A DNA stretch of 64,000 bases from an uncultured Bacilli bacterium. Its GTDB lineage: Bacteria > Bacillota_I > Bacilli_A > RF39 > UBA660. The translations under genes and the position numbers were made by a program. Below, one piece after another: positions 27,887 to 62,831 of this stretch. Under the pieces are notes generated by a model. That model searched no databases, had not been told where the DNA came from, and worked only from the letters and a program-made list of their open reading frames with translations. The stretch lies in NCBI GenBank assembly GCA_910585915.1, contig CAJUGF010000001.1, positions 4,622-68,621 of the forward strand, read 5' to 3'. The stretch's first letter is position 1. Every line of letters starts with the position of its first letter.

Positions 27887-28972
27887 ATGAAAAATAAGAA
27901 AATGGATTATTTTTTGTTTTTTGCTGTTCTTTTGATTGGAGTCTTTGGAATGATTATGATTTATTCTGCAAGTAGTATTTGGGCAGAATATAGGTTTCAT
28001 GATGCATTTAAATTTGTGAAAGCACAAGCCGTTTTCTTTCTTGTAGGGATTATACTTATCAATGTGATATCAAAGATTGATTATCATTTGTATCTTAAAT
28101 ATTCAAATAAAATTTTAGCCATTTGTTTTCTTTTACTAGTGTTAGTATTAATTCCTGGCATCGGAACAATTCGAAATGGATCTCGAAGTTGGTTTGGGCT
28201 TGGTGGTTTTGGTATTCAACCTTCTGAGTTTGCTAAGATTGGTTTAATTATTTATACTGCTAAGTATTTATCAAAGCACCAAAGAGAGATGCGAGATATT
28301 AAGAAGGGTGTTTTACCAATTTTGATGGTTATTGGCGTTTTTTTCTTACTTATTATGTTGGAACCTGATTTTGGAACAGCTATGGTTATTGTTTTAACAT
28401 TAGTGTGTATGATTTTTGTAAGTGGCGTTAAGATTTCCTTCTTTGTAAAAATGGGCCTTTTAGGGATTTTAGGAATTGTTGCACTTATTATTGTTGCACC
28501 ATATCGAATGGCAAGAATTGTTTCATTTTTAAATCCATGGACAGATCCTTTAGGAAGTGGATTTCAAATTATTCAATCGCTTTATGCAATTGGACCTGGG
28601 GGATTACTTGGGCAAGGATTTTTGAATAGTCATCAAAAGCATTTTTATTTGCCAGAGCCACAAACAGATTTTATTTTTTCAATTATTAGTGAAGAATTCG
28701 GCTTTCTTGGTGTTTTGATTGTGGTTAGTTTTTTCTTTTTCATTTTTTATCGTACTTTAAAGATTAGCATGAGTACAAATGATGCTTTTGGAAAATATTT
28801 ATCTTTTGGTCTTTCTTTTGGTATTATTATTCAAGCTGTTTTGAATTTATGTGTTGTTATTGGATTAATTCCTGTCACAGGAGTTACTTTGCCATTTTTA
28901 TCTTATGGAGGAAGTAGTTTACTCGTAAGTATGGCGAGTATTGGAATTATTTTAAATATTAGCAAAAATTAA
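27887..28972 (+). CDS. ftsW: SEDS-family peptidoglycan glycosyltransferase FtsW/RodA
   Basis: RBS AAAGGAGG; 10-TM SEDS protein with PFLSYGGSSLL-type C-terminal motif. Confidence 0.9.
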   Translation: MKNKKMDYFLFFAVLLIGVFGMIMIYSASSIWAEYRFHDAFKFVKAQAVFFLVGIILINVISKIDYHLYLKYSNKILAICFLLLVLVLIPGIGTIRNGSRSWFGLGGFGIQPSEFAKIGLIIYTAKYLSKHQREMRDIKKGVLPILMVIGVFFLLIMLEPDFGTAMVIVLTLVCMIFVSGVKISFFVKMGLLGILGIVALIIVAPYRMARIVSFLNPWTDPLGSGFQIIQSLYAIGPGGLLGQGFLNSHQKHFYLPEPQTDFIFSIISEEFGFLGVLIVVSFFFFIFYRTLKISMSTNDAFGKYLSFGLSFGIIIQAVLNLCVVIGLIPVTGVTLPFLSYGGSSLLVSMASIGIILNISKN

Positions 28973-29072
28973 CTATAGTTATAATGATTAGATTTTTATG
29001 AGTTTTTTGAAATTTTAGTGTTGCCAAACTAACTGTTCAATGTCATAATAATTTTCGAAGGTGATTTTTAAC

Positions 29073-32000
29073 ATGAAATTAACAAAGGAACAACAAAAAT
29101 TGTGGAATGTATATCATTATGCTTTTCCCTCTATAGATCAATTTTTAGATTTTTATAATCATGCTTTTAATGATTCGAAGCAAAATGTGAAGATAAGTTT
29201 TCAACAGTTGATGCAGCAGTATTTAAAAAAACATATGAATGTTGATTTAATGATGAATTATCTTAATCAGTTGAATATCAATTATAATTCTTCTAGTCAA
29301 GAAATTCGTATTAAATTACGTCCTTTTTATCAATTATTAGATCAATTGGATTATTGTTTAGCAATGGATGATGCAGCAGTATTAATTGAGTATCCTTTGT
29401 TTCAAACTTTATTTTCTAAACTTTTTGGTCAAAATAAAATAATAGCTGAGGATCAATTTCAAAAATTGGCGAATGATAGTATTTATTTTGAAATTTTATG
29501 TCGTGTTTATTTAGATTGTCATGATATTGAAGTAGATGAATCTTTAAATAATAAAGATGATAGAACTTTATCTAAGACAAAGATTTTGACTCATGAGGAG
29601 GAAATTGAATTAGCGAAAAGAATTGAAGCTGGTGATATAAAGGCTCAAGAAACTTTTATTTTAGCAAATCAACAATTAGTTAAGTATGTTGCAAAGAGTT
29701 ATATTGGAAATGGTCTTGAATTTGATGATTTGTTTCAAGAAGGAATCATAGGACTTATGACAGCTATTCAAAAGTTTGATTATCAAAAAGGTTATAAATT
29801 TTCTACTTATGCTGTTTGGTGGATTCGTCACGCAATATATCATGCTATAAGAAAGGCTAGAGCGATTCCAGTACCAACTTATCGCGAACAAGAATATAAT
29901 CATATTATGAAGGTGCATGCTCAACTGGTGAATGAGCTTCAACGGAAACCATCTTTAGATGAATGGGCAAATCATTTAGGAATGGAGAAAGAAAGCTTGC
30001 AAGAAATAGTCAACTCTATTCCTAATGTAGTATCATTCGAAAGCAAAGTATCGAGTGAAGATGATAAAGAACTTGGGGATTTTTATGAAGATTCAAAGGC
30101 ACGTTTTGAGGAAGATGTCGTTCAAAGACAATATGTTTCGGAAATATTAAAATTGAGTAAAGAAATATTAAGTGAAAAAGAATATCAAGTTTTATTACTT
30201 CGATTTGGATTAGCTGATGGAACCAGTTATACTTTAGAAGAAGTTGGAAGAAAATTTAATGTAACAAGAGAAAGAATTCGTCAAATTGAAGCTAAGGCAT
30301 TAATAAAATTGAAGCATAGTTTGAAATATGAAAAGAATAAAACATTACATTTAGCTGAGAATGAACCTAACTTAGAAGAAGTTGGAAAAAAATTTAATGT
30401 AACGAGAGAGAGAACTCGTCAAATTGAGAACGCTATGAATGAACCTAGCTTAGAAGAAGTTGGAAATAAATTTAATGTAACAAGTGAGAGAACTTGTCAA
30501 ATTGAGAACACTATGAATGAACCTAACTTAGAAGAAGCTGAGAAAAAAATTAATGTAACAAGAGAGAGAACTTGTCAAATTGAGAACGTTATGAATGAAC
30601 CTAACTTAGAAGAAGCTGGGAAAAAAATTAATGTAACAAGAGAGAGAACTTGTCAAATTGAGAACACTATGAATGAACCTAGTTTAGAAGCGAAAAAAAA
30701 ATATACAAAGTTTGATATTCATCTTCTTCATTCTTCCCTTTCTATATCTTTACTTGTGGATTTTATTAAACTTTTTCCAAAACATGATCAAAAACTGTAT
30801 TGCTGTTTGAGAGGAATTCAGTTGTCTCAAAAAGATATCGTTCCAATAGAAGATGATTCATTTAATGATAAACAAAAGAAATATATCACTATTATTGAAA
30901 ACGATCTGAAGGCTATGGCATGTGAATATTTTTATTATATTAAAAAACGAAAATGTGATAAGGAAGTTGCTTTAAAGCATCTTGCAAAAGTTATGGTAAT
31001 AAAATTTCTTCGTTTTCGATATCCTAATTCTACACTATCTATGATTATGGATGCAGTGAAAAAACTTCCGTTAGAACAACGTCAGGCTATATATCGAGTG
31101 CATGGTGAAGATTTGTGTTCTTATTTGTTAGGTGTAGGTGTCAGACAAAAAAAATCAAGTTTGTTAAATCTTGCCTATAAAGATATTGCTGCTATTTTAA
31201 ATGAACATGAAGTGGTTCATATCAAGACAAGAAGTAATACTTTGTTTTTACTTATGGAGAAATATCCAGAGATTTCTTTAGAACAATGGATTTTAAATAT
31301 ACAATCTTTGCCAAAAAAACAAAGAGAAATTATGCAGTATGTTCATGGAGAGAGCCTCGATCAGAATCGATCTTTTTCAAGTCAAGACAAAGTGAGGCAA
31401 TATGCTAACTATCAAAATGGACTTCGAAGTTTAGAACAATTGGCAAATGGAACTAGAAGAGTTATTACACTAAAGGAACAAAAGAAAAATATGCTGTTTT
31501 TACTTATGGAGAAATATCCAGAGATTTCTTTAGAACAATGGATTTTAAATATACAATCTTTGCCAAAAAAACAAAGAGAAATTATGCAGTATGTTCATGG
31601 AGAGAGCCTCGATCAGAATCGATCTTTTTCAAGTCAAGACAAAGTGAGGCAATATGCTAACTATCAAAATGGACTTCGAAGTTTAGAACAATTGGCAAAT
31701 GGAACTAGAAAAGTTATTACACCAAAAGAAAAATTGTTCAAAATATTGAAAGTTGATAATGTTCAGATTTTAAATGAAGCATTAGAGCAACTTGAACTTT
31801 TTGAAAGGGATGTATTTTATTCTGTACATGGACAAACATTTGAAGAGTATCATGAGATTTCTAATTTTCAAGAGTATGAAAGAGTGTTTGAAAAACTAAG
31901 TGGAATAATGTTAGAAATACAAAAAGGGAAAAAGGATACCTTACTATCTTTACTTATGAAGAAGTATCCTGATATTACGAAAAAGCACTGGCATGTTTTT

Positions 32001-33080
32001 ATTAATGCTTTATCACCCAAGCAAAAGGAAGTTATTTATGAGGTAAATGGTGTAGATCTTGATGAAAGTAATTGGATTTCTAGGAATTTACCTTCCAAAA
32101 TTTATGAACGTTATTATTATGCAATTCAAAATTTGGAAGCACTAGCACAAAAAGCCTTTAATAAAACGGAGGAAAGAGATAAAAACATTATTGATGTTTA
32201 TGGAACTGAAAGAGTACGTTTTATTTTTCAATTTTTGAATAAAGAAGAATTATCTGTCTTTTTGTATCGTCATGGTGCTGATTTGAATGAATGCAATGAA
32301 TTTCCAGAACATTTAAATCATTTAAGAAATATGTATATTTGTACTATTGAAAAAATGAAAAATTTGTTAGAAATTTATACTGATTTATTGCAAGAATTTT
32401 TAGATTGTGTAGGACTTGCTTCTTTTGAAGAGGCACAGCATTTTATTTCGCTTTTAAGCATTGAAGAACAAGCAATTATTTATCAGCGGAGAGGAGAAAA
32501 ATTAAATACATTAAATTCTTTTATCTATGGTAAATCATTTGCTTATTATAAACGGCAGTATGATGATGCAGTGCAACATTTAAAAAAATTAAAGAAAGAA
32601 GATAATCAAAGAAAAGAATATAATCAAAGAAAAGAAGAAATTATTAATAGAGAAATTTTAGAATCTCAAAAGAAAATATTACTTGATGCAAAATTAAGTC
32701 AATATCAACAAAGTCTTTATTGTGAGTTTTTCCAATTATATGGAACTTTGATAAATGAATATGATTTAATGCGTGTTATTAATAAATCTCTTCTTTCTTA
32801 TACTTCTAGTGAGGGACTTTCTGTTGAAGTGTCAAGTCATTTTAAAGTTGAGACAGCGGTTTTAGAAATGTTAGTTTGTCAATATCAAATGGTGCAGAGT
32901 CAAGAATTGTTTGAGGCAATTAATAGTATTTTAAGTGTAAACTTAGCAGAAAAGTATTCATTTGTTAAAAAGAATATTATGTCTCCAGTGATTTATGCAG
33001 TGTTTCAAAAATATGTTGATCAACAGTTAATTTTTGAGGGGCTTGAAAAACCAGTTATTAAAGCTTATCAGATGAATTAA
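29073..33080 (+). CDS. Giant sigma-70-family protein: N-terminal unknown domain + complete sigma regions 2-4 + tandem region-4 repeats + ~900-aa C-terminal extension
   Basis: Residues about 175-420 carry canonical sigma regions 2.1-2.4 (DLFQEGIIGLMTAIQKFDYQKGYKFSTYAVWWIRHAI), region 3 and region 4 (LLLRFGLADGTSYTLEEVGRKFNVTRERIRQIEAKALIKLK). After that come ~4.3 in-frame 26-aa repeats (about four copies) re-copying the 4.2 helix, then multiple LPxxQRxxxxxxHGEDL-type modules. Confidence 0.8.
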   Translation: MKLTKEQQKLWNVYHYAFPSIDQFLDFYNHAFNDSKQNVKISFQQLMQQYLKKHMNVDLMMNYLNQLNINYNSSSQEIRIKLRPFYQLLDQLDYCLAMDDAAVLIEYPLFQTLFSKLFGQNKIIAEDQFQKLANDSIYFEILCRVYLDCHDIEVDESLNNKDDRTLSKTKILTHEEEIELAKRIEAGDIKAQETFILANQQLVKYVAKSYIGNGLEFDDLFQEGIIGLMTAIQKFDYQKGYKFSTYAVWWIRHAIYHAIRKARAIPVPTYREQEYNHIMKVHAQLVNELQRKPSLDEWANHLGMEKESLQEIVNSIPNVVSFESKVSSEDDKELGDFYEDSKARFEEDVVQRQYVSEILKLSKEILSEKEYQVLLLRFGLADGTSYTLEEVGRKFNVTRERIRQIEAKALIKLKHSLKYEKNKTLHLAENEPNLEEVGKKFNVTRERTRQIENAMNEPSLEEVGNKFNVTSERTCQIENTMNEPNLEEAEKKINVTRERTCQIENVMNEPNLEEAGKKINVTRERTCQIENTMNEPSLEAKKKYTKFDIHLLHSSLSISLLVDFIKLFPKHDQKLYCCLRGIQLSQKDIVPIEDDSFNDKQKKYITIIENDLKAMACEYFYYIKKRKCDKEVALKHLAKVMVIKFLRFRYPNSTLSMIMDAVKKLPLEQRQAIYRVHGEDLCSYLLGVGVRQKKSSLLNLAYKDIAAILNEHEVVHIKTRSNTLFLLMEKYPEISLEQWILNIQSLPKKQREIMQYVHGESLDQNRSFSSQDKVRQYANYQNGLRSLEQLANGTRRVITLKEQKKNMLFLLMEKYPEISLEQWILNIQSLPKKQREIMQYVHGESLDQNRSFSSQDKVRQYANYQNGLRSLEQLANGTRKVITPKEKLFKILKVDNVQILNEALEQLELFERDVFYSVHGQTFEEYHEISNFQEYERVFEKLSGIMLEIQKGKKDTLLSLLMKKYPDITKKHWHVFINALSPKQKEVIYEVNGVDLDESNWISRNLPSKIYERYYYAIQNLEALAQKAFNKTEERDKNIIDVYGTERVRFIFQFLNKEELSVFLYRHGADLNECNEFPEHLNHLRNMYICTIEKMKNLLEIYTDLLQEFLDCVGLASFEEAQHFISLLSIEEQAIIYQRRGEKLNTLNSFIYGKSFAYYKRQYDDAVQHLKKLKKEDNQRKEYNQRKEEIINREILESQKKILLDAKLSQYQQSLYCEFFQLYGTLINEYDLMRVINKSLLSYTSSEGLSVEVSSHFKVETAVLEMLVCQYQMVQSQELFEAINSILSVNLAEKYSFVKKNIMSPVIYAVFQKYVDQQLIFEGLEKPVIKAYQMN
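30358..30695 (+). repeat. In-frame tandem repeat, 78-bp unit x ~4.3, inside the giant sigma gene
   Basis: ATGAATGAACCTA(A/G)(C/T)TTAGAAGAAG ... recurs at 30435, 30513, 30591 and 30669, with a partial first copy at about 30358. It encodes NEP(N/S)LEE(V/A)GKK(F/I)NVTRERT(R/C)QIEN.M, a fragment of the region-4.2 HTH. Confidence 0.9.
31240..31745 (+). repeat. Near-perfect 252-bp tandem duplication (2 copies) inside the giant sigma gene
   Basis: A block of about 200 identical bases (AAATATCCAGAGATTTCTTTAGAACAATGG ... GGCAAATGGAACTAGAA) occurs at about 31257 and again at about 31509. It encodes LLMEKYPEISLEQWILNIQSLPKKQREIMQYVHGESLDQNRSF ... twice. Confidence 0.9.
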
Positions 33081-33201
33081 GTTATTTTTTGATCTTGTTT
33101 GTGATATAATTTTATTAGATTTATTCATACCTTTTACTTTTAATTTATTAATAGTCATTCGTGTACGGTTTAAATCAATATGTTTTGAAGGAGGTACTTG
33201 A

Positions 33202-33390
33202 GTGGCTGATAAGAATATAACTTGTAAGATGTGTGGACAAGAATTTACTTTTACTGTTGGAGAACAAGAATGGTATTCAGAGCGTAATTTGAATGAACCA
33301 AAGTATTGTAAGACTTGTCGTGCAGAAAGAAGAAAACAAAAAGAAAAACAAAATAATATTCATAATGATTCGGTAAAGAAAGCTGCATAG
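33202..33390 (+). CDS. Small zinc-ribbon protein (zf-trcl-like, CxxC ... CxxC)
   Basis: RBS GAAGGAGG then GTG. CKMCGQEFTFTVGEQEWY ... CKTCR matches the probable zinc-ribbon small-protein family. Confidence 0.6.
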   Translation: MADKNITCKMCGQEFTFTVGEQEWYSERNLNEPKYCKTCRAERRKQKEKQNNIHNDSVKKAA

Positions 33391-33455
33391 CTTTTTTTCT
33401 TTTTGATAAACAAATGAATATAATTATAGTATAATGTATAAAAGGAGTCGTTAAT

Positions 33456-34532
33456 ATGAAAATCATAGTATCGGCAGGTGGTAGTTTTGGACATATTAAT
33501 CCTGCTTTAGCGATTATAAAAAAATTTCAAGAAAAGGAAAAAGATTTGGAAGTTTTATATATTGGTACCCATAATCGAATGGAAAAGGAGATTGTTCCAA
33601 AGGAGGGTATTCCTTATGAAGAAATTGAGATTTATGGTTTTACTAAGAATATGAAGCGCAACTTTAAAAATATCGGTTGTATTTATCATGCTACTAAAAA
33701 AGTTGAAAAGATTATAGATAAGTTTCAGCCAGATGTTGTAATTGGAGTAGGCGGCTATGTTACTTATCCAGTTTTGAAAGCTGCTCATAAAAAACATGTT
33801 AAGACTTTTATTCATGAGCAAAATAGTATTCCAGGAAAGAGTAATAAGATGATTGCTCGTTATGCCGATTTGATTGGTGTTACTTTTCAGACTTCGAAGT
33901 CGTATTTTAAAACAAAAGGCAAAATTGTTTATACTGGACACCCTTGTGGAGCGCAGGCTTTGTTAGAACCTAAACTTAATAAAAGTGATTTTGGTCTTTC
34001 AAAAACAAAGAAACTTGTTATTGTTATGGCAGGAAGTCTTGGAAGTTCTTCTTTGAATCGAAAGATGAAAGAAATGTTATACCAAGTAGGTCGTGAAAAT
34101 TTTGAAGTTTTATATGTGACAGGAAAAGCAAATTATGAGGAGTTTATGGAGGGGAAAAAGTTTCCCGATAATGTTTTTGTAAGACCCTATATTGATCATT
34201 TAGTTGGACTATTGAAATCTGCTGATGTTGTTATTTCAAGAGCTGGAGCTGCGTCTTTGTATGAACTTATTGCACTTCACATTCCAAGTATTATTGTTCC
34301 AAGTCCGAATGTAGCAAATAATCATCAGTATTATAATGCGAAAGAGATGAGTGAAAAGGGAGCTTTTGTGATGATTGAAGAAAAAAATTTGAATGCGGCT
34401 TTGATACTTCAAAAAATAAAAGAAATGTTAGATGATAGTGCGAAACGCATAGAATTAATTCAAAATATGAAGAAGTTGTCTATATTGGATAGTTCAGAAA
34501 TCATCTATCGTGAAATAAAGGAAATGATCTGA
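33456..34532 (+). CDS. murG: UDP-N-acetylglucosamine--N-acetylmuramyl-(pentapeptide) pyrophosphoryl-undecaprenol N-acetylglucosamine transferase
   Basis: MKIIVSAGGSFGHINPALAI (GT28 N-domain G-loop) and the C-terminal GT28 domain. Confidence 0.92.
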   Translation: MKIIVSAGGSFGHINPALAIIKKFQEKEKDLEVLYIGTHNRMEKEIVPKEGIPYEEIEIYGFTKNMKRNFKNIGCIYHATKKVEKIIDKFQPDVVIGVGGYVTYPVLKAAHKKHVKTFIHEQNSIPGKSNKMIARYADLIGVTFQTSKSYFKTKGKIVYTGHPCGAQALLEPKLNKSDFGLSKTKKLVIVMAGSLGSSSLNRKMKEMLYQVGRENFEVLYVTGKANYEEFMEGKKFPDNVFVRPYIDHLVGLLKSADVVISRAGAASLYELIALHIPSIIVPSPNVANNHQYYNAKEMSEKGAFVMIEEKNLNAALILQKIKEMLDDSAKRIELIQNMKKLSILDSSEIIYREIKEMI

Positions 34533-35425
34533 TGAAAGAAACGCTTATGAATTTTGGAGAAGTATTAGAGAATGTTTCTCTAAAAAATTATAATACATTT
34601 CGAATTGGTGGAATGGCTTCTTTTATAATTTTTCCTAAAACGGTTTGTGATGTTCAAAATCTTATTTATTTTTTGAAAGAGAAAAACATTAAATATTTCG
34701 TTTTAGGAAATGGTTCTAATGTTATTTTTTCTGATCAACTATTTGATGGTGTGATTGTGAATTTAAAAAAAATGGATGCTATTATTTATCAGGGAACACA
34801 AGTTATTTGTGAATCGGGAGTTATGATGCCAAGGCTTGCGATGGATGTTATATCTCATGGGCTTAAGGGGTTTGAATGGGCAGCAGGTATTCCAGGCACT
34901 GTTGGAGGATGCGTTTATGGAAATGCCGAAGCCTACAAAGAATCAACGTTTGACTTTTTATTGGAAGTTCAAGTTTTAACTCCTGAAGGCGATTTAAAAA
35001 TTTTAAAAAAAGCAGATCTTTCTTATGGCTATCGTACTAGTTTTTTTAAAGAAAATCCAGGATATGTTTTATTAAGTGCTACTTTTTCTTTGGAATATGG
35101 TGACAAGGAAGAAAGTATGGAAAAAATATTATGCCGTAAGGAAAAGCGTATGGAGACTCAACCTTTGGACTATCCAAGTGCAGGAAGTGTTTTTCGAAAT
35201 CCATCTTCTGATAATCCAAGTGGAAAGATTATTGAGAGTATTGGGATGAAAGGATATATAATTGGTGGGGCAGAAGTGAGTAAAAAACATGCTAATTTTA
35301 TAGTTAATACAGGAAATGCTACTAGTAATGATGTTAGAAATTTGGTAGAATTAGTTCATCAGAGGGTTCAGAAAGAAACAAATATTGATTTAGTAATGGA
35401 ACAAGAATTCGTTGGGTGGGACTAA
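34532..35425 (+). CDS. murB: UDP-N-acetylenolpyruvoylglucosamine reductase
   Basis: FAD-binding NYNTFRIGG ... LGNGSNV and the C-terminal MurB domain; start overlaps the murG stop. Confidence 0.9.
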   Translation: MKETLMNFGEVLENVSLKNYNTFRIGGMASFIIFPKTVCDVQNLIYFLKEKNIKYFVLGNGSNVIFSDQLFDGVIVNLKKMDAIIYQGTQVICESGVMMPRLAMDVISHGLKGFEWAAGIPGTVGGCVYGNAEAYKESTFDFLLEVQVLTPEGDLKILKKADLSYGYRTSFFKENPGYVLLSATFSLEYGDKEESMEKILCRKEKRMETQPLDYPSAGSVFRNPSSDNPSGKIIESIGMKGYIIGGAEVSKKHANFIVNTGNATSNDVRNLVELVHQRVQKETNIDLVMEQEFVGWD

Positions 35426-35426
35426 G

Positions 35427-36134
35427 ATGAAAGAGAAAAAGACTAAAACAAAGCGTAAATTAAGACTTCATAATTTTTTTCGGATTTGTTTTGTTTTAGC
35501 TCTTTTTTTTGTTTTGGGTTGTTATTTTTATTTTCTTCCTATTAAAAATATTGTTATTACTGGAACAAATTACATTACTGACAATGAAATTATTGATGTA
35601 GCTGGGATCAAGAATTATCCTCCTTTATTTCAAACTAGTAGTCGTAAACTTATTCAGGATATTGAAACTTTGGATTTCGTATCATCTGTAAAAATTCATA
35701 AAAGTGTTTTTGGGCGATTGACTATTGAAGTTTTTGAGGAGAAGCCTTTATTTTATAGTAGAAATTCAGAAAAGCTGATTTTTGCTAGTGGTAAAGAGAT
35801 TATTTCACAGGAATTAAAGGGAGTAGCAGTACTTGTTAACTATGTTCCAAATGAAATTTATGAGAGATTACTTAAAGAGATGGATGCAACGAATTCAGAT
35901 GTTTTAAAAATGATTAGTGAGATTGAGTATCAGCCGTGGATGAGCGATGATGTAGTGATAGATGATACACGCTTTTTCCTTCGAATGAATGATGGAAATG
36001 TTGTCTATGTTAATCTTATTAATTTTGAAAAGTTAAATAATTATATGACCATTTATTCGACTCTAGGAGAAAATAGTGGTATATTACAATTGGATTCATC
36101 ATTAGGAAATGGCATTACATTTGCACCATTTTAA
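35427..36134 (+). CDS. divIB: Cell division protein DivIB/FtsQ
   Basis: Basic N-terminus, single TM, POTRA-like segment; position after murB. Confidence 0.75.
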   Translation: MKEKKTKTKRKLRLHNFFRICFVLALFFVLGCYFYFLPIKNIVITGTNYITDNEIIDVAGIKNYPPLFQTSSRKLIQDIETLDFVSSVKIHKSVFGRLTIEVFEEKPLFYSRNSEKLIFASGKEIISQELKGVAVLVNYVPNEIYERLLKEMDATNSDVLKMISEIEYQPWMSDDVVIDDTRFFLRMNDGNVVYVNLINFEKLNNYMTIYSTLGENSGILQLDSSLGNGITFAPF

Positions 36135-39448: not shown

Positions 39449-40384
39449 ATGGCCGTAGTTTCTATGAGTAATCTTTTAGAAGCTGGAGTTCATTTTGGAC
39501 ATCAAACAAAAAGATGGAATCCAAAGATGAAACCTTATATCTTTGCAGCAAGAGAAGATATTTATATAATTGACTTGCAAAAGACAGCTGAAAAGCTTGA
39601 AGAAGCTTATCCAGTAGTGAAAACCATTGCTGAAAATGGTGGTACTTTTCTTTTTGTAGGTACTAAAAAACAAGCGAGTGAAGTAGCCAAAGAAGAAGCT
39701 TTAAGAAGTAATTCATTTTATGTTACTGAAAGATGGCTTGGTGGAACACTTACAAATTTCCGTACTATTCGTAGACGTGTAAAACGTTTAGAAGAAATTG
39801 AAGCAATGGAGAAAAATGGTACATTTGAAGTGTTACCAAAAAAAGAAGTTATTGGACTTAAGAAAGAATATGAAAAGTTAAATCGTTTACTTTCAGGTAT
39901 TCGTGGCATGGTTAAGATACCACAAGCTATGATTATTGTAGATCCTAAGAAGGAAATTAATGCAATTCGTGAAGCACGTAAACTTAATATTCCAGTATTT
40001 GGTTTAGTAGATACCAATTGTGATCCTGATGACGTTGATTATGTAATTCCTGGTAATGATGATGCAGTTCGTTCTGTTAAAGTTGTTTTAGGAGTTTTAA
40101 ATAATGCTATTTGTGAAGCCAATCATTTAGAAATGGTTGATTATGTTACAGAAGAGGATAAGAAAAAAGTAAAAGAAGTGAAGGATGAAGTAAAAACTTC
40201 TGATGTTATGGGGACTGCTTTGCAAGAAGAAAAGAAGGAAGTAAAGGAAGTAGCAAAAGAAGATAACAATGAAGATCTTTCTAAAAAAACTTTGACTGAG
40301 CTAAAAGCTATGGCGAAAGAAGCAAATGTTAAAGGGTATAGTACTATGAAAAAGGATGAACTTATTGCATCTTTAACAAAATAA
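39449..40384 (+). CDS. rpsB: 30S ribosomal protein S2 with Lys/Glu-rich C-terminal extension
   Basis: [32 protein letters not shown]; RBS AAAGGAGG; about 60 extra residues ([14 protein letters not shown] ...) relative to typical S2. Confidence 0.95.
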
Positions 40385-60622: not shown

Positions 60623-60717
60623 TGTTCCTTGTTCTAATTCAACATAGGCTTTTCCTTAAAGTTTAAGTAAGGATTTATGTTTTTTTTATGAAAGGCTGAG
60701 TGATAGGTGAAGTATTT

Positions 60718-61521
60718 ATGATGATTAAAAATGTGGAGTTAACCAGTGATATTCAAAGGGATTATGTACAAATGGTACATAAAATTCCGAAACTTACTGT
60801 CAAGGAAGAAAAATCTTTATTTGAGGGATATTATAATAGTAAAGATTCTCATCTTAAAGATGAAAATTCAATGTTGGAATTTAGTTATGAAGGAAAATCT
60901 TTTCATTTTGATAAAAATGATATTTCATCTTATGAATTTATGGCAGTATGTAAAGAAATTTTGAAACCTTCTTACTATCTTGTTTTATATTATCGTTATT
61001 TTTGTCTTGATCCAAAGTCTTTAAGTTTTATTGCTCATATGTTTTTTTCAACAAGACAGAATATTTCGGTTTTAATTGAGCGTGCTTTTTATGTGTTGAA
61101 ACCTTATTTAAATTGTTCAAAGGAGTATTTAAGAGTCCTTGAATGCTTAATGTCTAAGGAAGGGGATAATTTTAAATATTTGAATGTGCATCCGATTGAT
61201 CCAAAGGATATTGTTCGGTTTTGGTATGCATATCCTTATTTGAATTTGAAAGAACGAGAAGTTTTAAGAGAACACTTGCTTGGAAAGTATGATGTGTTAA
61301 CTTTTCCACTTTATCAATTGCTTGAAATGTCTAAAAAAGAATATAGTGTATGTTTGAATTCTTTACAAGAAAAGTTGGAAGTAATATTTTCTGATTATCA
61401 AAAATATTATAAGCAAGAAGAGTTATGTATTCGTGCATACAAAACAAAGATTTATAATATGGATTTGAATAGTAAGTTTTGTTTTTTTGATGATGATATT
61501 AAACGACGTTTAACTATATAA
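60718..61521 (+). CDS. Sigma-factor-like protein lacking region 2 (paralog of the C-terminal part of the next gene)
   Basis: Region-1.2-like N-terminus (DYVQMVHKIPKLTVKEEKSLFEGY), a region-4-like HTH (STRQNISVLIERAFYVLK), and a shared C-terminal module (DIVRFWYAYPYLNLKEREVLREHLLGKYD). No region 2 core. Confidence 0.55.
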   Translation: MMIKNVELTSDIQRDYVQMVHKIPKLTVKEEKSLFEGYYNSKDSHLKDENSMLEFSYEGKSFHFDKNDISSYEFMAVCKEILKPSYYLVLYYRYFCLDPKSLSFIAHMFFSTRQNISVLIERAFYVLKPYLNCSKEYLRVLECLMSKEGDNFKYLNVHPIDPKDIVRFWYAYPYLNLKEREVLREHLLGKYDVLTFPLYQLLEMSKKEYSVCLNSLQEKLEVIFSDYQKYYKQEELCIRAYKTKIYNMDLNSKFCFFDDDIKRRLTI

Positions 61522-61601
61522 AGAGAGTAAGATAATATTTTTTAGAAGAACTCTTGTTATTCAAATCTTTTTCTTTTATAATACTTTTCGAGGTGGGGGG
61601 A

Positions 61602-62831
61602 ATGGTTTCTAATAATAGCATGTTTTCTTTTTCTAATTTAGAAACTGATTATTTAACGATGATACACGGTATTCCGCTTCTTTCTTCTAATCAACTACTT
61701 GCATTGTTTTCTGAATATAAAAGTACATTAAATGAAGATATTTTGAAGCAAATTGTGGAGCATAACTTGCGATTAGTACCTGGAATCGCGAAATTGTATT
61801 TGAATAAATGTAATCATTTGAAATTCATGGATCTTATTCAAGAGGGAAATTATGGTCTTATGAAAGCAGCACGATCCTTTGATCCAAATTATGGTACTGC
61901 TTTTTCCACATTTGCTACTTCTTATATTCATGGATATATTAAGAATGCAATTGCAATGCAAGAGCGTTTGATTAAAGAAGATCCACGCTTTGTTAGTCAA
62001 TTGATGCGATATCAAAAACTAAAAAGGAAATATCAAAATTGTGAAGAGGAAGCACCTTCTGATGAAGAATTATGTTCTATATTAGGTGTTTCTTTTGATA
62101 CTTTACGATTGTTTGAAGAAGTTAATGTTAGAAAAATTACAAGTCTTGATGCCAAACTTAAAGAAGATGCTGATGATTGTTTGCTTGATGTCATTTCAAG
62201 TGCGGAAGATGTGTCTACTGAGATGGTTGATAATTATATGGATCAAGAAATTATGGTTTTATGTAAATGGCTTTTAAAATCTGTTTCATATTTTGTGTTA
62301 TATTATCAATATTTTTCGAAGAAAGTAATACTTTTAAGTGATCTTGGAAATCTTATGGGGAGTAGACGTCAGAATGCTTCTCAATATCTTAAAAAAGCAA
62401 TTCAACAACTAAAACCTTATTTTACGTCTTCTTCACTTTATTCTGAAACTTTACAAGCTATTAAAACGAGGGAAGGTAAGAATTATAGTTTTTTATCTTT
62501 GAAACCAATTTCTCCTCAAGATATTACTAAATATCTTTATGCTTATCCTTTTTTGATGCCTATAGAACAGAAAGTGCTTTATTGGGAATTGTTTGGAAAG
62601 TATGAAAGAGAATGTCCTTTTGTTTATGATTTACTTTGTATGAGTAAAGGTGAATATTATTCAACTTTGTCTTCTTTACAGTTTAGATTAAAAGAAATAT
62701 TCCAGAATTATAAAATGTATAAAGACTATGAAAAACAATGTATTGAAACTCATAAAGCGAAAATTTATAAACTTGATTTGCATTATGAGTTAGTAGATAA
62801 TAAGCTTGTTAAATCTTTTAATTCAAAGTAA
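61602..62831 (+). CDS. Atypical sigma-70-family factor with ~150-aa C-terminal extension
   Basis: RBS GAGGTGGGGGG. Region 2 (LRLVPGIAKLYLNKCNHLKFMDLIQEGNYGLMKAARSFDPNYGTAFSTFATSYIHGYI). Region-4-like HTH (SRRQNASQYLKKAIQQLK). The C-terminal module (DITKYLYAYPFLMPIEQKVLYWELFGKYE) is shared with the 60718 protein. Confidence 0.7.
   Translation: MVSNNSMFSFSNLETDYLTMIHGIPLLSSNQLLALFSEYKSTLNEDILKQIVEHNLRLVPGIAKLYLNKCNHLKFMDLIQEGNYGLMKAARSFDPNYGTAFSTFATSYIHGYIKNAIAMQERLIKEDPRFVSQLMRYQKLKRKYQNCEEEAPSDEELCSILGVSFDTLRLFEEVNVRKITSLDAKLKEDADDCLLDVISSAEDVSTEMVDNYMDQEIMVLCKWLLKSVSYFVLYYQYFSKKVILLSDLGNLMGSRRQNASQYLKKAIQQLKPYFTSSSLYSETLQAIKTREGKNYSFLSLKPISPQDITKYLYAYPFLMPIEQKVLYWELFGKYERECPFVYDLLCMSKGEYYSTLSSLQFRLKEIFQNYKMYKDYEKQCIETHKAKIYKLDLHYELVDNKLVKSFNSK

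What the first reader, a model, noticed from the sequence alone, without database searches (positions are those of the whole stretch)
31240..31745. Perfect 252-bp tandem duplication inside the sigma gene C-terminal tail
Two adjacent 84-aa units are identical over about 200 bp, differing only at the edges (RRVITLKEQKKNM vs RKVITPKEKLFKI). This implies a very recent duplication or ongoing gene conversion. It is also the kind of structure short-read assemblers collapse or expand, so the true copy number could differ.
Basis: seen in the sequence. Interest (0 to 1): 0.55.

Follow-up and report, generated by a model that had tools for sequence, protein, structure and literature searches.

The report
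Duplicated sigma4-like module in giant sigma
The repeat is real: one 84-residue module is present twice in the long tail of an unusually large RNA polymerase sigma factor from an uncultured gut bacterium. That tail is built from sigma-domain-4-like modules, and the number of copies differs between two otherwise identical assemblies.

Summary
Window 31243-31458 equals 31495-31710 exactly (216 bp), the period is 252 bp, and the repeat is in frame (84 aa). The next 22 bp carry 4 mismatches, and the last 14 bp of the junction are unrelated to either flank.

A second assembly (L001) is 100% identical over 23.3 kb, except that it lacks one 252-bp unit and one unit of a nearby 78-bp array. The 36-bp junction cannot be made by an assembler, so at least two copies exist in the source genome. 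The single copy in L001 could be a real deletion or a short-read collapse.

No single breakpoint pair explains the diverged junction. This favours an older duplication with later homogenisation of the core over one very recent event.

The protein family is rare (56 clusters among 1.84 billion representatives), carries 1-17 modules per protein, and I found no paper describing it. The DNA event is ordinary; the protein is unusual.

The parts
29021..29066 (+). Promoter-like site (TTGCCA, 17-nt spacer, TG-CATAAT; 29021-29049) and ribosome-binding site GAAGGTG (about 29058-29066) ahead of the ATG at 29073.
   Evidence: These are consensus matches only. The ATG start agrees with database protein P0001.
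29073..33080 (+). Giant sigma-70 family gene. It encodes 1335 aa: an N-terminal family-specific domain (aa 1-165), a sigma core, repeat arrays, seven modules and a C-terminal helical domain.
29568..30347 (+). RpoD-like sigma core, regions 1.2-4.2 (aa 166-425). The authentic region 4 is aa 365-425 (30165-30347).
   Evidence: Pfam r1.2, r2, r3 and r4 score above cut-off. The best NCBIfam match is RpoD PRK09210, 293 bits, below its 572-bit cut-off.
30359..30690 (+). A 78-bp (26-aa) in-frame array of 4.3 units. The units are amplified DNA copies of the gene's own region-4.2 helix-turn-helix segment (30231-30290). L001 has one unit fewer.
30990..31232 (+). Module 1 of the tail (aa 640-720), a sigma4-like module.
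   Evidence: Module HMM; Pfam Sigma70_r4_2 partial hit at aa 661-683.
31242..31493 (+). Copy 1 of the 252-bp unit (aa 724-807, module A1). The perfect core is 31243-31458.
31459..31494 (+). Junction of 36 bp between the two perfect cores. The first 22 bp are homologous to the flank after copy 2 (4 mismatches). The last 14 bp are unrelated to either flank.
   Evidence: This sequence exists only if the repeat is tandem, so it shows at least two copies in the source DNA (inference).
31494..31745 (+). Copy 2 of the 252-bp unit (aa 808-891, module A2). The perfect core is 31495-31710.
31725..32615 (+). Remaining modules: B (aa 885-953), A3 (aa 955-1032), C (aa 1031-1106) and D (aa 1104-1181). Each has a positional orthologue in related species.
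32613..33080 (+). Coiled coil plus the family-specific C-terminal helical domain (aa 1181-1335). An 18-bp x2.9 repeat lies at 32587-32638.
   Evidence: The fold search found only generic helical bundles.

Best explanation
The 252-bp repeat is a genuine in-frame tandem duplication of one ~84-residue sigma-domain-4-like module. It lies in the modular C-terminal tail of a giant RpoD-like sigma factor from an uncultured, low-GC gut member of the Bacilli (a 'Tenericutes'-type MAG lineage).

The tail is an array of seven such modules, all descended from sigma region 4. Such arrays grow and shrink by unequal recombination or replication slippage between neighbouring units. In this lineage the first A-type module was duplicated some time ago, and the linker between the copies has diverged since. 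The 216-bp core was then made identical recently, by gene conversion or by an unequal crossover between the copies.

The two perfect 216-bp direct repeats lie 36 bp apart and are a substrate for further gain or loss of whole modules. This would account for the one-copy version in the second assembly.

Shown: the repeat itself, the sigma4-like fold of the unit, the module array, and the copy-number difference between assemblies. Inferred: the two-step history, the recombination mechanism, and any effect on the protein.

The tail most likely serves as a protein-interaction scaffold or decoy rather than as extra DNA-binding domains. In the model, the first helix of the helix-turn-helix is replaced by a loop. 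This functional reading is inference and my confidence in it is low.
For: Repeat.

Host gene: sigma-70 regions 1.2-4 in Pfam; best NCBIfam match RpoD.

Module array: an iterated HMM finds 7 modules in the window protein and 6 in P0002, and 1-17 across the family.

Link between the module and sigma4:
- A PDB sequence-profile search has FliA region 4 (aa 179-236) as best hit, E = 0.022, aligned over the whole module.
- hhalign against a region-4 alignment gives probability 76%, E = 2e-5, over 25 columns corresponding to region 4.1.
- The AF2 model has pLDDT 93.5.
- Most of the Foldseek hits are sigma domain 4, although none is significant.
- Pfam Sigma70_r4 and r4_2 pass their cut-offs on the module arrays of relatives P0160, P0130 and P0162.

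History: 0 mismatches in 216 bp against 4 in 22 bp. If four differences fell at random over 238 bp, the chance that all lie in the last 22 bp is about (22/238)^4 = 7e-5 (my calculation). The best single-breakpoint model needs at least 11 substitutions in the junction. A1 and A2 are sisters in the module tree, next to the first A module of P0003; the other modules show positional orthology.

Instability: L001 is identical over 23.3 kb except for one 78-bp unit and one 252-bp unit fewer. The crossover points fall inside a 46-bp and a 216-bp identical stretch. L001's 78-bp array contains k-mers absent from the window at k >= 49, so that difference is probably real.

Other family members also carry near-identical module pairs: P0134 98%, P0155 83%, P0162 80%.
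Against: - No reads were available, so the true copy number (2 or more) is unverified, and so is the exact identity of the two cores.
- If a de Bruijn assembler walked one collapsed unitig twice, the cores would be identical by construction and small real differences would have been removed.
- The one-copy L001 version can be produced from window-type reads at any k up to 217.
- The closest orthologues (P0004 and P0002: A-B-A-C) have no adjacent A-A pair. The one-copy state may therefore be ancestral and the duplication young, with a complex junction instead of an old one.
- The sequence evidence for sigma4 homology is marginal for this particular protein. Pfam r4_2 scores 19.2 bits against a 25.7-bit cut-off, and hhalign covers only the N-terminal third of the module.
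- Nothing here tests what the tail does.
Confidence: 0.8

Rival explanations
1. One very recent tandem duplication arose from a one-copy ancestor like P0002, by slippage or unequal crossover. Nothing happened afterwards, and the one-copy assembly is the ancestral allele still present in the population.
For: The related species P0004 and the one-copy form P0002 share the module order A-B-A-C. The 216-bp core is perfect. The two assemblies are otherwise identical over 23.3 kb, so the change is very young in one direction or the other.
Against: A simple duplication predicts a junction made of the downstream flank joined to the upstream flank. The best such model still has 11 mismatches in 36 bp, and 14 bp match neither flank. 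All four differences in the homologous span lie in its last 22 bp. A complex event with filler DNA would be needed.
Confidence: 0.25
2. It is an assembly artefact. The genome has one copy and the assembler expanded it; or it has two diverged copies that the assembler made identical; or it has more than two copies.
For: The source is a metagenome-assembled genome (GCA_949518705.1). A 216-bp repeat is longer than usual k-mers. A second assembly shows one copy, and that is compatible with collapse at any k up to 217. Identity of the cores would follow by construction if one unitig was traversed twice (inference).
Against: The 36-bp junction (31459-31494) is unique sequence, with the end of the repeat on its left and the start of the repeat on its right. 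An assembler cannot invent it, so at least one tandem junction exists in real molecules (inference). The two-copy protein is on record on two contigs. The nearby 78-bp array also differs between the assemblies, in a way collapse cannot explain at k >= 49.
Confidence: 0.1
3. The copy-number change is an adaptive switch. Gain and loss of modules tunes the sigma factor's activity, in the manner of a contingency locus.
For: Two repeat arrays in the same gene differ between two otherwise identical assemblies. Module number ranges from 1 to 17 across the family, with several young duplicates. All changes are in frame.
Against: There are no functional data. Only two assemblies of this species are on record. 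Long in-frame units do not switch expression on and off as short-repeat contingency loci do. Neutral instability of perfect direct repeats explains the same facts.
Confidence: 0.08

Closest known systems
Primary (group 1) sigma factor RpoD/SigA
   Same: The core has regions 1.2, 2, 3 and 4. Its recognition helix is near-canonical (VTRERIRQIEAKAL). The best NCBIfam matches are RpoD models, and the core is 47-50% identical to RpoD of other bacteria.
   Different: It scores below every RpoD cut-off (293 versus 572 bits; 253 versus 354 bits). It carries a 165-aa family-specific N-terminal domain and a 900-aa C-terminal tail. It lies in the dcw cell-division and cell-wall gene cluster between ftsW and murG, not next to dnaG. 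Whether it is the cell's housekeeping sigma could not be tested with 64 kb of sequence.
ECF sigma factors with fused C-terminal extensions (ECF41, ECF42, ECF44, ECF56 and similar)
   Same: In both, a sigma factor carries an extra C-terminal region thought to modulate its own activity (PMC3426412, PMC8999054, PMC4598750; found).
   Different: The known extensions are single non-sigma domains of about 100 aa or more (for example SnoaL-like) on sigma2-sigma4 proteins. Here the core is RpoD-like with region 3, and the extension is an array of seven sigma4-like modules. Some distant family members (P0129, P0135) do have sigma2 plus sigma4 only.
Sigma-factor mimics such as PhyR
   Same: Sigma4-like (and sigma2-like) domains serve there as protein-binding decoys and not for promoter recognition (PMC4598750). 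This is the nearest precedent for a sigma4 fold that does not bind DNA.
   Different: PhyR is a separate response-regulator protein with one sigma-like domain. Here the sigma4-like domains are repeated and fused to a real sigma. No partner is known, and decoy function is only a hypothesis.
Tandem domain-repeat proteins with concerted evolution and copy-number polymorphism (for example bacterial surface proteins with long in-frame repeats)
   Same: The units are long and in frame and each encodes a whole domain. Neighbouring copies are near-identical, the edges have diverged, and copy number differs between isolates. All of this is explained by unequal recombination and gene conversion (general knowledge).
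   Different: Here the protein is a cytoplasmic transcription factor, and only one pair of modules is homogenised. The other modules are old and positionally conserved.

Membership tests
Sigma-70 family (Pfam) | Regions 2, 3 and 4 (and 1.2) score above the Pfam gathering cut-offs. | tested here: met
   r4 112.2 bits (cut-off 24.1), r2 79.5 (24), r3 56.3 (25.3), r1.2 30.4 (22).
RpoD/SigA primary sigma (NCBIfam equivalogs PRK09210, TIGR02393) | The whole-protein score reaches the curated cut-off. | tested here: not met
   PRK09210 scores 293.3 bits against a 572 cut-off; TIGR02393 scores 253.1 against 354. These are the best-matching families but fall below threshold, so I call the core 'RpoD-like' and not RpoD.
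RpoD/SigA primary sigma | It is the only group-1 sigma in the genome and is essential as the housekeeping sigma. | not testable with these tools
   Only 64 kb of the genome is available. The window holds a second, much weaker sigma-70 gene at 61554-62831.
Sigma region 4 domain (for the duplicated module) | Sequence match to Pfam Sigma70_r4 or r4_2 above cut-off. | tested here: inconclusive
   In the window protein only module 1 gives a partial r4_2 hit, 19.2 bits against 25.7. In relatives, the module arrays pass: P0160 r4_2 48.1 and r4 40.1; P0130 r4_2 28.7. hhalign gives probability 76% over 25 columns. FliA region 4 scores E = 0.022.
Sigma region 4 domain (for the duplicated module) | The sigma4 fold. 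| tested here: met
Sigma region 4 domain (for the duplicated module) | An intact helix-turn-helix with the -35 recognition residues. | tested here: not met
   In the model, residues 39-52 are a loop where the first helix of the helix-turn-helix would lie. The RERIRQIE motif is absent from the modules. DNA binding itself was not tested.
ECF sigma with C-terminal extension | The core consists of sigma2 and sigma4 only, with no region 3 or 1.2. | tested here: not met
   Regions 3 and 1.2 are present.
Phase-variable contingency locus | A short repeat unit whose copy-number change shifts the reading frame or the promoter spacing. | tested here: not met
   The units are 252 bp and 78 bp, both multiples of 3 and inside the coding region. 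All observed variants stay in frame.

The most novel reading that the evidence does not exclude
This is an undescribed class of sigma factors. A real sigma core is fused to a variable array (1-17 copies) of degenerate sigma-domain-4 modules plus a conserved C-terminal helical domain. The array acts as a built-in multivalent decoy or scaffold for partners that normally bind sigma4, such as the beta-flap, anti-sigma factors or activators. Rapid in-frame gain and loss of modules, seen here even between near-clonal genomes, would tune that function.
Probability: 0.15. Interest if true: 0.75.

Novelty: new variant of a known kind. Interest (0 to 1): 0.45.

Why it matters
As a DNA event this is ordinary: perfect direct repeats in a coding region that recombine and confuse short-read assemblers. 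Two things make it worth noting.

First, it is a concrete case where MAG-derived protein lengths for one strain differ by 110 residues between assemblies. Repeat copy number in this gene should therefore not be trusted without long reads.

Second, the unit is a whole sigma4-like domain, and the host protein belongs to a rare and apparently undescribed family of giant sigma factors in uncultured gut Bacilli. Their tails are arrays of such domains. If the tail regulates the sigma factor, this would be a new way of building regulation into a sigma factor. It would also be a natural example of domain-array evolution in a core transcription protein.

Tried and rejected
- **GTDB representative genomes, family-specific patterns.** 131 pattern matches were found, but none was a relative.
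- **GTDB scan with RpsB.** This second scan gave only the approximate taxon: uncultured 'Tenericutes'/Bacilli gut and rumen MAGs, at most 73% identity.
- **JGI metagenomes, a 35-mer from the repeat core.** No hits, so no further copy-number data.
- **Cluster look-up.** It gave no names or accessions.
- **Literature.** Five searches found nothing on sigma factors with repeated region 4 or on these accessions.
- **Two-module alignment for a tandem-module model.** MAFFT shifted the repeat registers (361 columns for ~160-aa sequences), so I dropped it.
- **Module HMM on the other two sigma-like genes of the window.** No hit, so I do not claim they share this tail.
- **Rfam.** Nothing in the window.
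- **Local BLASTP self-comparison of the protein.** It printed nothing useful and I replaced it with the HMM approach.
- **Charge analysis of the modules.** No pattern.

Full report
**1. The observation.** Tandem Repeats Finder reports an array at 31243-31730 with period 252, 1.9 copies, 98% matches and no indels. A base-by-base comparison at offset 252 shows that 31243-31458 and 31495-31710 are identical over 216 bp. Mismatches follow at 31459, 31471, 31475 and 31479, and from 31480 onward the two sequences are unrelated. The period is a multiple of three.

**2. The gene.** The ORF 29073-33080 (+) has a GAAGGTG ribosome-binding site and a promoter-like site upstream and encodes 1335 aa. It is identical to database protein P0001 from MAG GCA_949518705.1.
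- Pfam finds sigma-70 regions 1.2, 2, 3 and 4 at aa 170-420, all above cut-off.
- The best NCBIfam models are RpoD (PRK09210 293 bits, TIGR02393 253 bits), but both fall below their cut-offs. I therefore call the core RpoD-like and do not claim it is the housekeeping sigma.
- The gene lies in the dcw cell-division and cell-wall gene cluster: PBP2B, MraY, FtsW, the sigma gene, a 62-aa zinc-finger protein, MurG, MurB, FtsQ.
- The window has 29.5% GC.
- Its RpsB is closest (at most 73% identity) to uncultured 'Tenericutes', Bacilli and Erysipelotrichaceae MAGs from human, rumen and rabbit gut.

**3. What the repeated unit is.** I seeded an HMM with the unit and iterated it on eight homologues. 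It finds seven modules in the window protein (six in P0002) and also touches the authentic region 4.1 of two homologues. Aligned modules share the pattern L-x3-Q/E-R/K-x-I/V-x-Y-x2-H-G-x2-L ... F/W-P ... Y-x2-A-x3-L. Several results tie the module to sigma region 4:
- A profile of 36 modules has FliA region 4 (aa 179-236) as its best PDB sequence match, aligned over the whole module, E = 0.022.
- hhalign against an alignment of authentic region 4 gives probability 76%, E = 2e-5, over the region-4.1 part.
- The AlphaFold model of aa 721-798 is confident (pLDDT 93.5), with helices at 3-10, 16-24, 28-38 and 53-77.
- Foldseek E-values are not significant, but most of the listed hits are sigma domain 4.
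- In relatives, Pfam Sigma70_r4 and r4_2 pass their cut-offs on the module arrays.

I conclude that the unit is one sigma4-like domain plus its linker. The segment that would form the first helix of the helix-turn-helix is a loop in the model, and the recognition motif is absent. Canonical -35 binding is therefore unlikely (inference).

**4. Real or artefact, and copy number.** The homologue search returned P0002 (1225 aa, ENA assembly of SRR5927688). It equals the window protein minus one 84-aa unit and minus one 26-aa unit.
- At DNA level its locus L001 is 100% identical to the window over 23.3 kb outside the two arrays. The deletion or duplication end-points fall within the 216-bp and a 46-bp identical stretch.
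- K-mer analysis shows that L001's single 252-bp copy could be produced from window-type reads at any k up to 217. Collapse therefore cannot be excluded.
- L001's shorter 78-bp array needs k-mers that do not exist in the window once k >= 49. That difference is probably real, and the two assemblies probably sample different clones.
- In the other direction, the 36-bp junction 31459-31494 is unique sequence flanked by the repeat's end and the repeat's start. No assembler can invent it, so at least two tandem copies exist in real molecules (inference).
- Caveat: if the assembler traversed one collapsed unitig twice, the perfect identity of the cores follows by construction.

**5. History.** I joined the downstream flank to the upstream flank at every possible breakpoint. 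The best fit to the junction still has 11 mismatches in 36 bp. The first 22 bp of the junction are homologous to the downstream flank, and the last 14 bp are new. There are no differences in 216 bp but four in the adjacent 22 bp. By my calculation the chance of that clustering is about 7e-5. This pattern of two age layers fits an older duplication whose core was recently homogenised by gene conversion or unequal crossover. A one-step recent duplication would need a complex junction.

In a module tree, A1 and A2 are sisters next to the first A module of P0003, while the other modules are positionally orthologous across species. Module order is A-A-B-A-C here, A-B-A-C in P0002 and P0004, and A-B-A-B-A-C in P0003. 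The pair is therefore lineage-specific, and I cannot fix the direction of the one-copy/two-copy difference.

**6. The family.** A profile of the conserved C-terminal region finds only 56 clusters among 1.84 billion representative proteins.
- Members have 1-17 modules.
- Several carry other young duplicates: P0134 98%, P0155 83%, P0162 80%, P0167 79%.
- Some members have a sigma2-plus-sigma4 core, or no detectable core.
- Gene context is conserved in the nearest species but not in a distant one.
- The C-terminal domain models well but matches only generic helical bundles.
- Literature searches found no description of such proteins.
- The nearest concepts are C-terminal extensions of ECF sigmas and sigma mimicry by PhyR (PMC4598750).

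**7. Verdict.** The DNA-level event is ordinary. The notable point is that the unit is a whole sigma4-like domain in a rare, apparently undescribed giant sigma factor whose repeat arrays differ between near-identical genomes. The function of the tail remains a hypothesis.

Noticed in passing
window 30359-30690: A 78-bp (26-aa) in-frame array of 4.3 units follows region 4. The units are about 90% identical DNA copies of the gene's own region-4.2 helix-turn-helix segment at 30231-30290 (LEEVGRKFNVTRERIRQIE becomes LEEVGKKFNVTRERTRQIE and similar variants). Orthologues P0003 and P0004 lack the array. The second assembly has one unit fewer, and that difference cannot be a k-mer collapse at k >= 49.
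   Followed up: partly
window 32587-32638: An 18-bp x2.9 repeat (NQRKEY/NQRKEE) lies in the charged coiled-coil segment before the C-terminal domain.
   Followed up: no
window 60700-61521 and 61554-62831: Two adjacent sigma-related genes. The 425-aa one is a weak sigma-70 family member. The 273-aa one is its paralogue (42% identity over 179 aa) but lacks regions 2-3. Both share a C-terminal extension after region 4. The tail-module HMM does not hit them.
   Followed up: partly
window 39449-40384: Ribosomal protein S2 is 311 aa, with a lysine- and glutamate-rich C-terminal extension that carries a Pfam Rho_N hit. The same long form occurs in the nearest gut MAGs, but typical Bacilli match only residues 1-230.
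   Followed up: no
window 27887-36131: The giant sigma gene and a 62-aa zinc-finger gene (33202-33390, Pfam zf_Tbcl) sit inside the dcw cell-division and cell-wall gene cluster between ftsW and murG. The arrangement is syntenic in the P0004 species (L084) but not in the P0008 species, where the gene lies between T2SS-type genes and ruvAB (L083).
   Followed up: partly
proteins P0160, P0157, P0129, P0135 (family members, not in the window): Some relatives have up to 17 modules with no detectable sigma2/sigma3 (P0160; no Pfam hit at all for P0157). Others have an ECF-like sigma2-plus-sigma4 core with the same tail. The module array is therefore not tied to one type of sigma core. Some of these may be truncated gene calls.
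   Followed up: no
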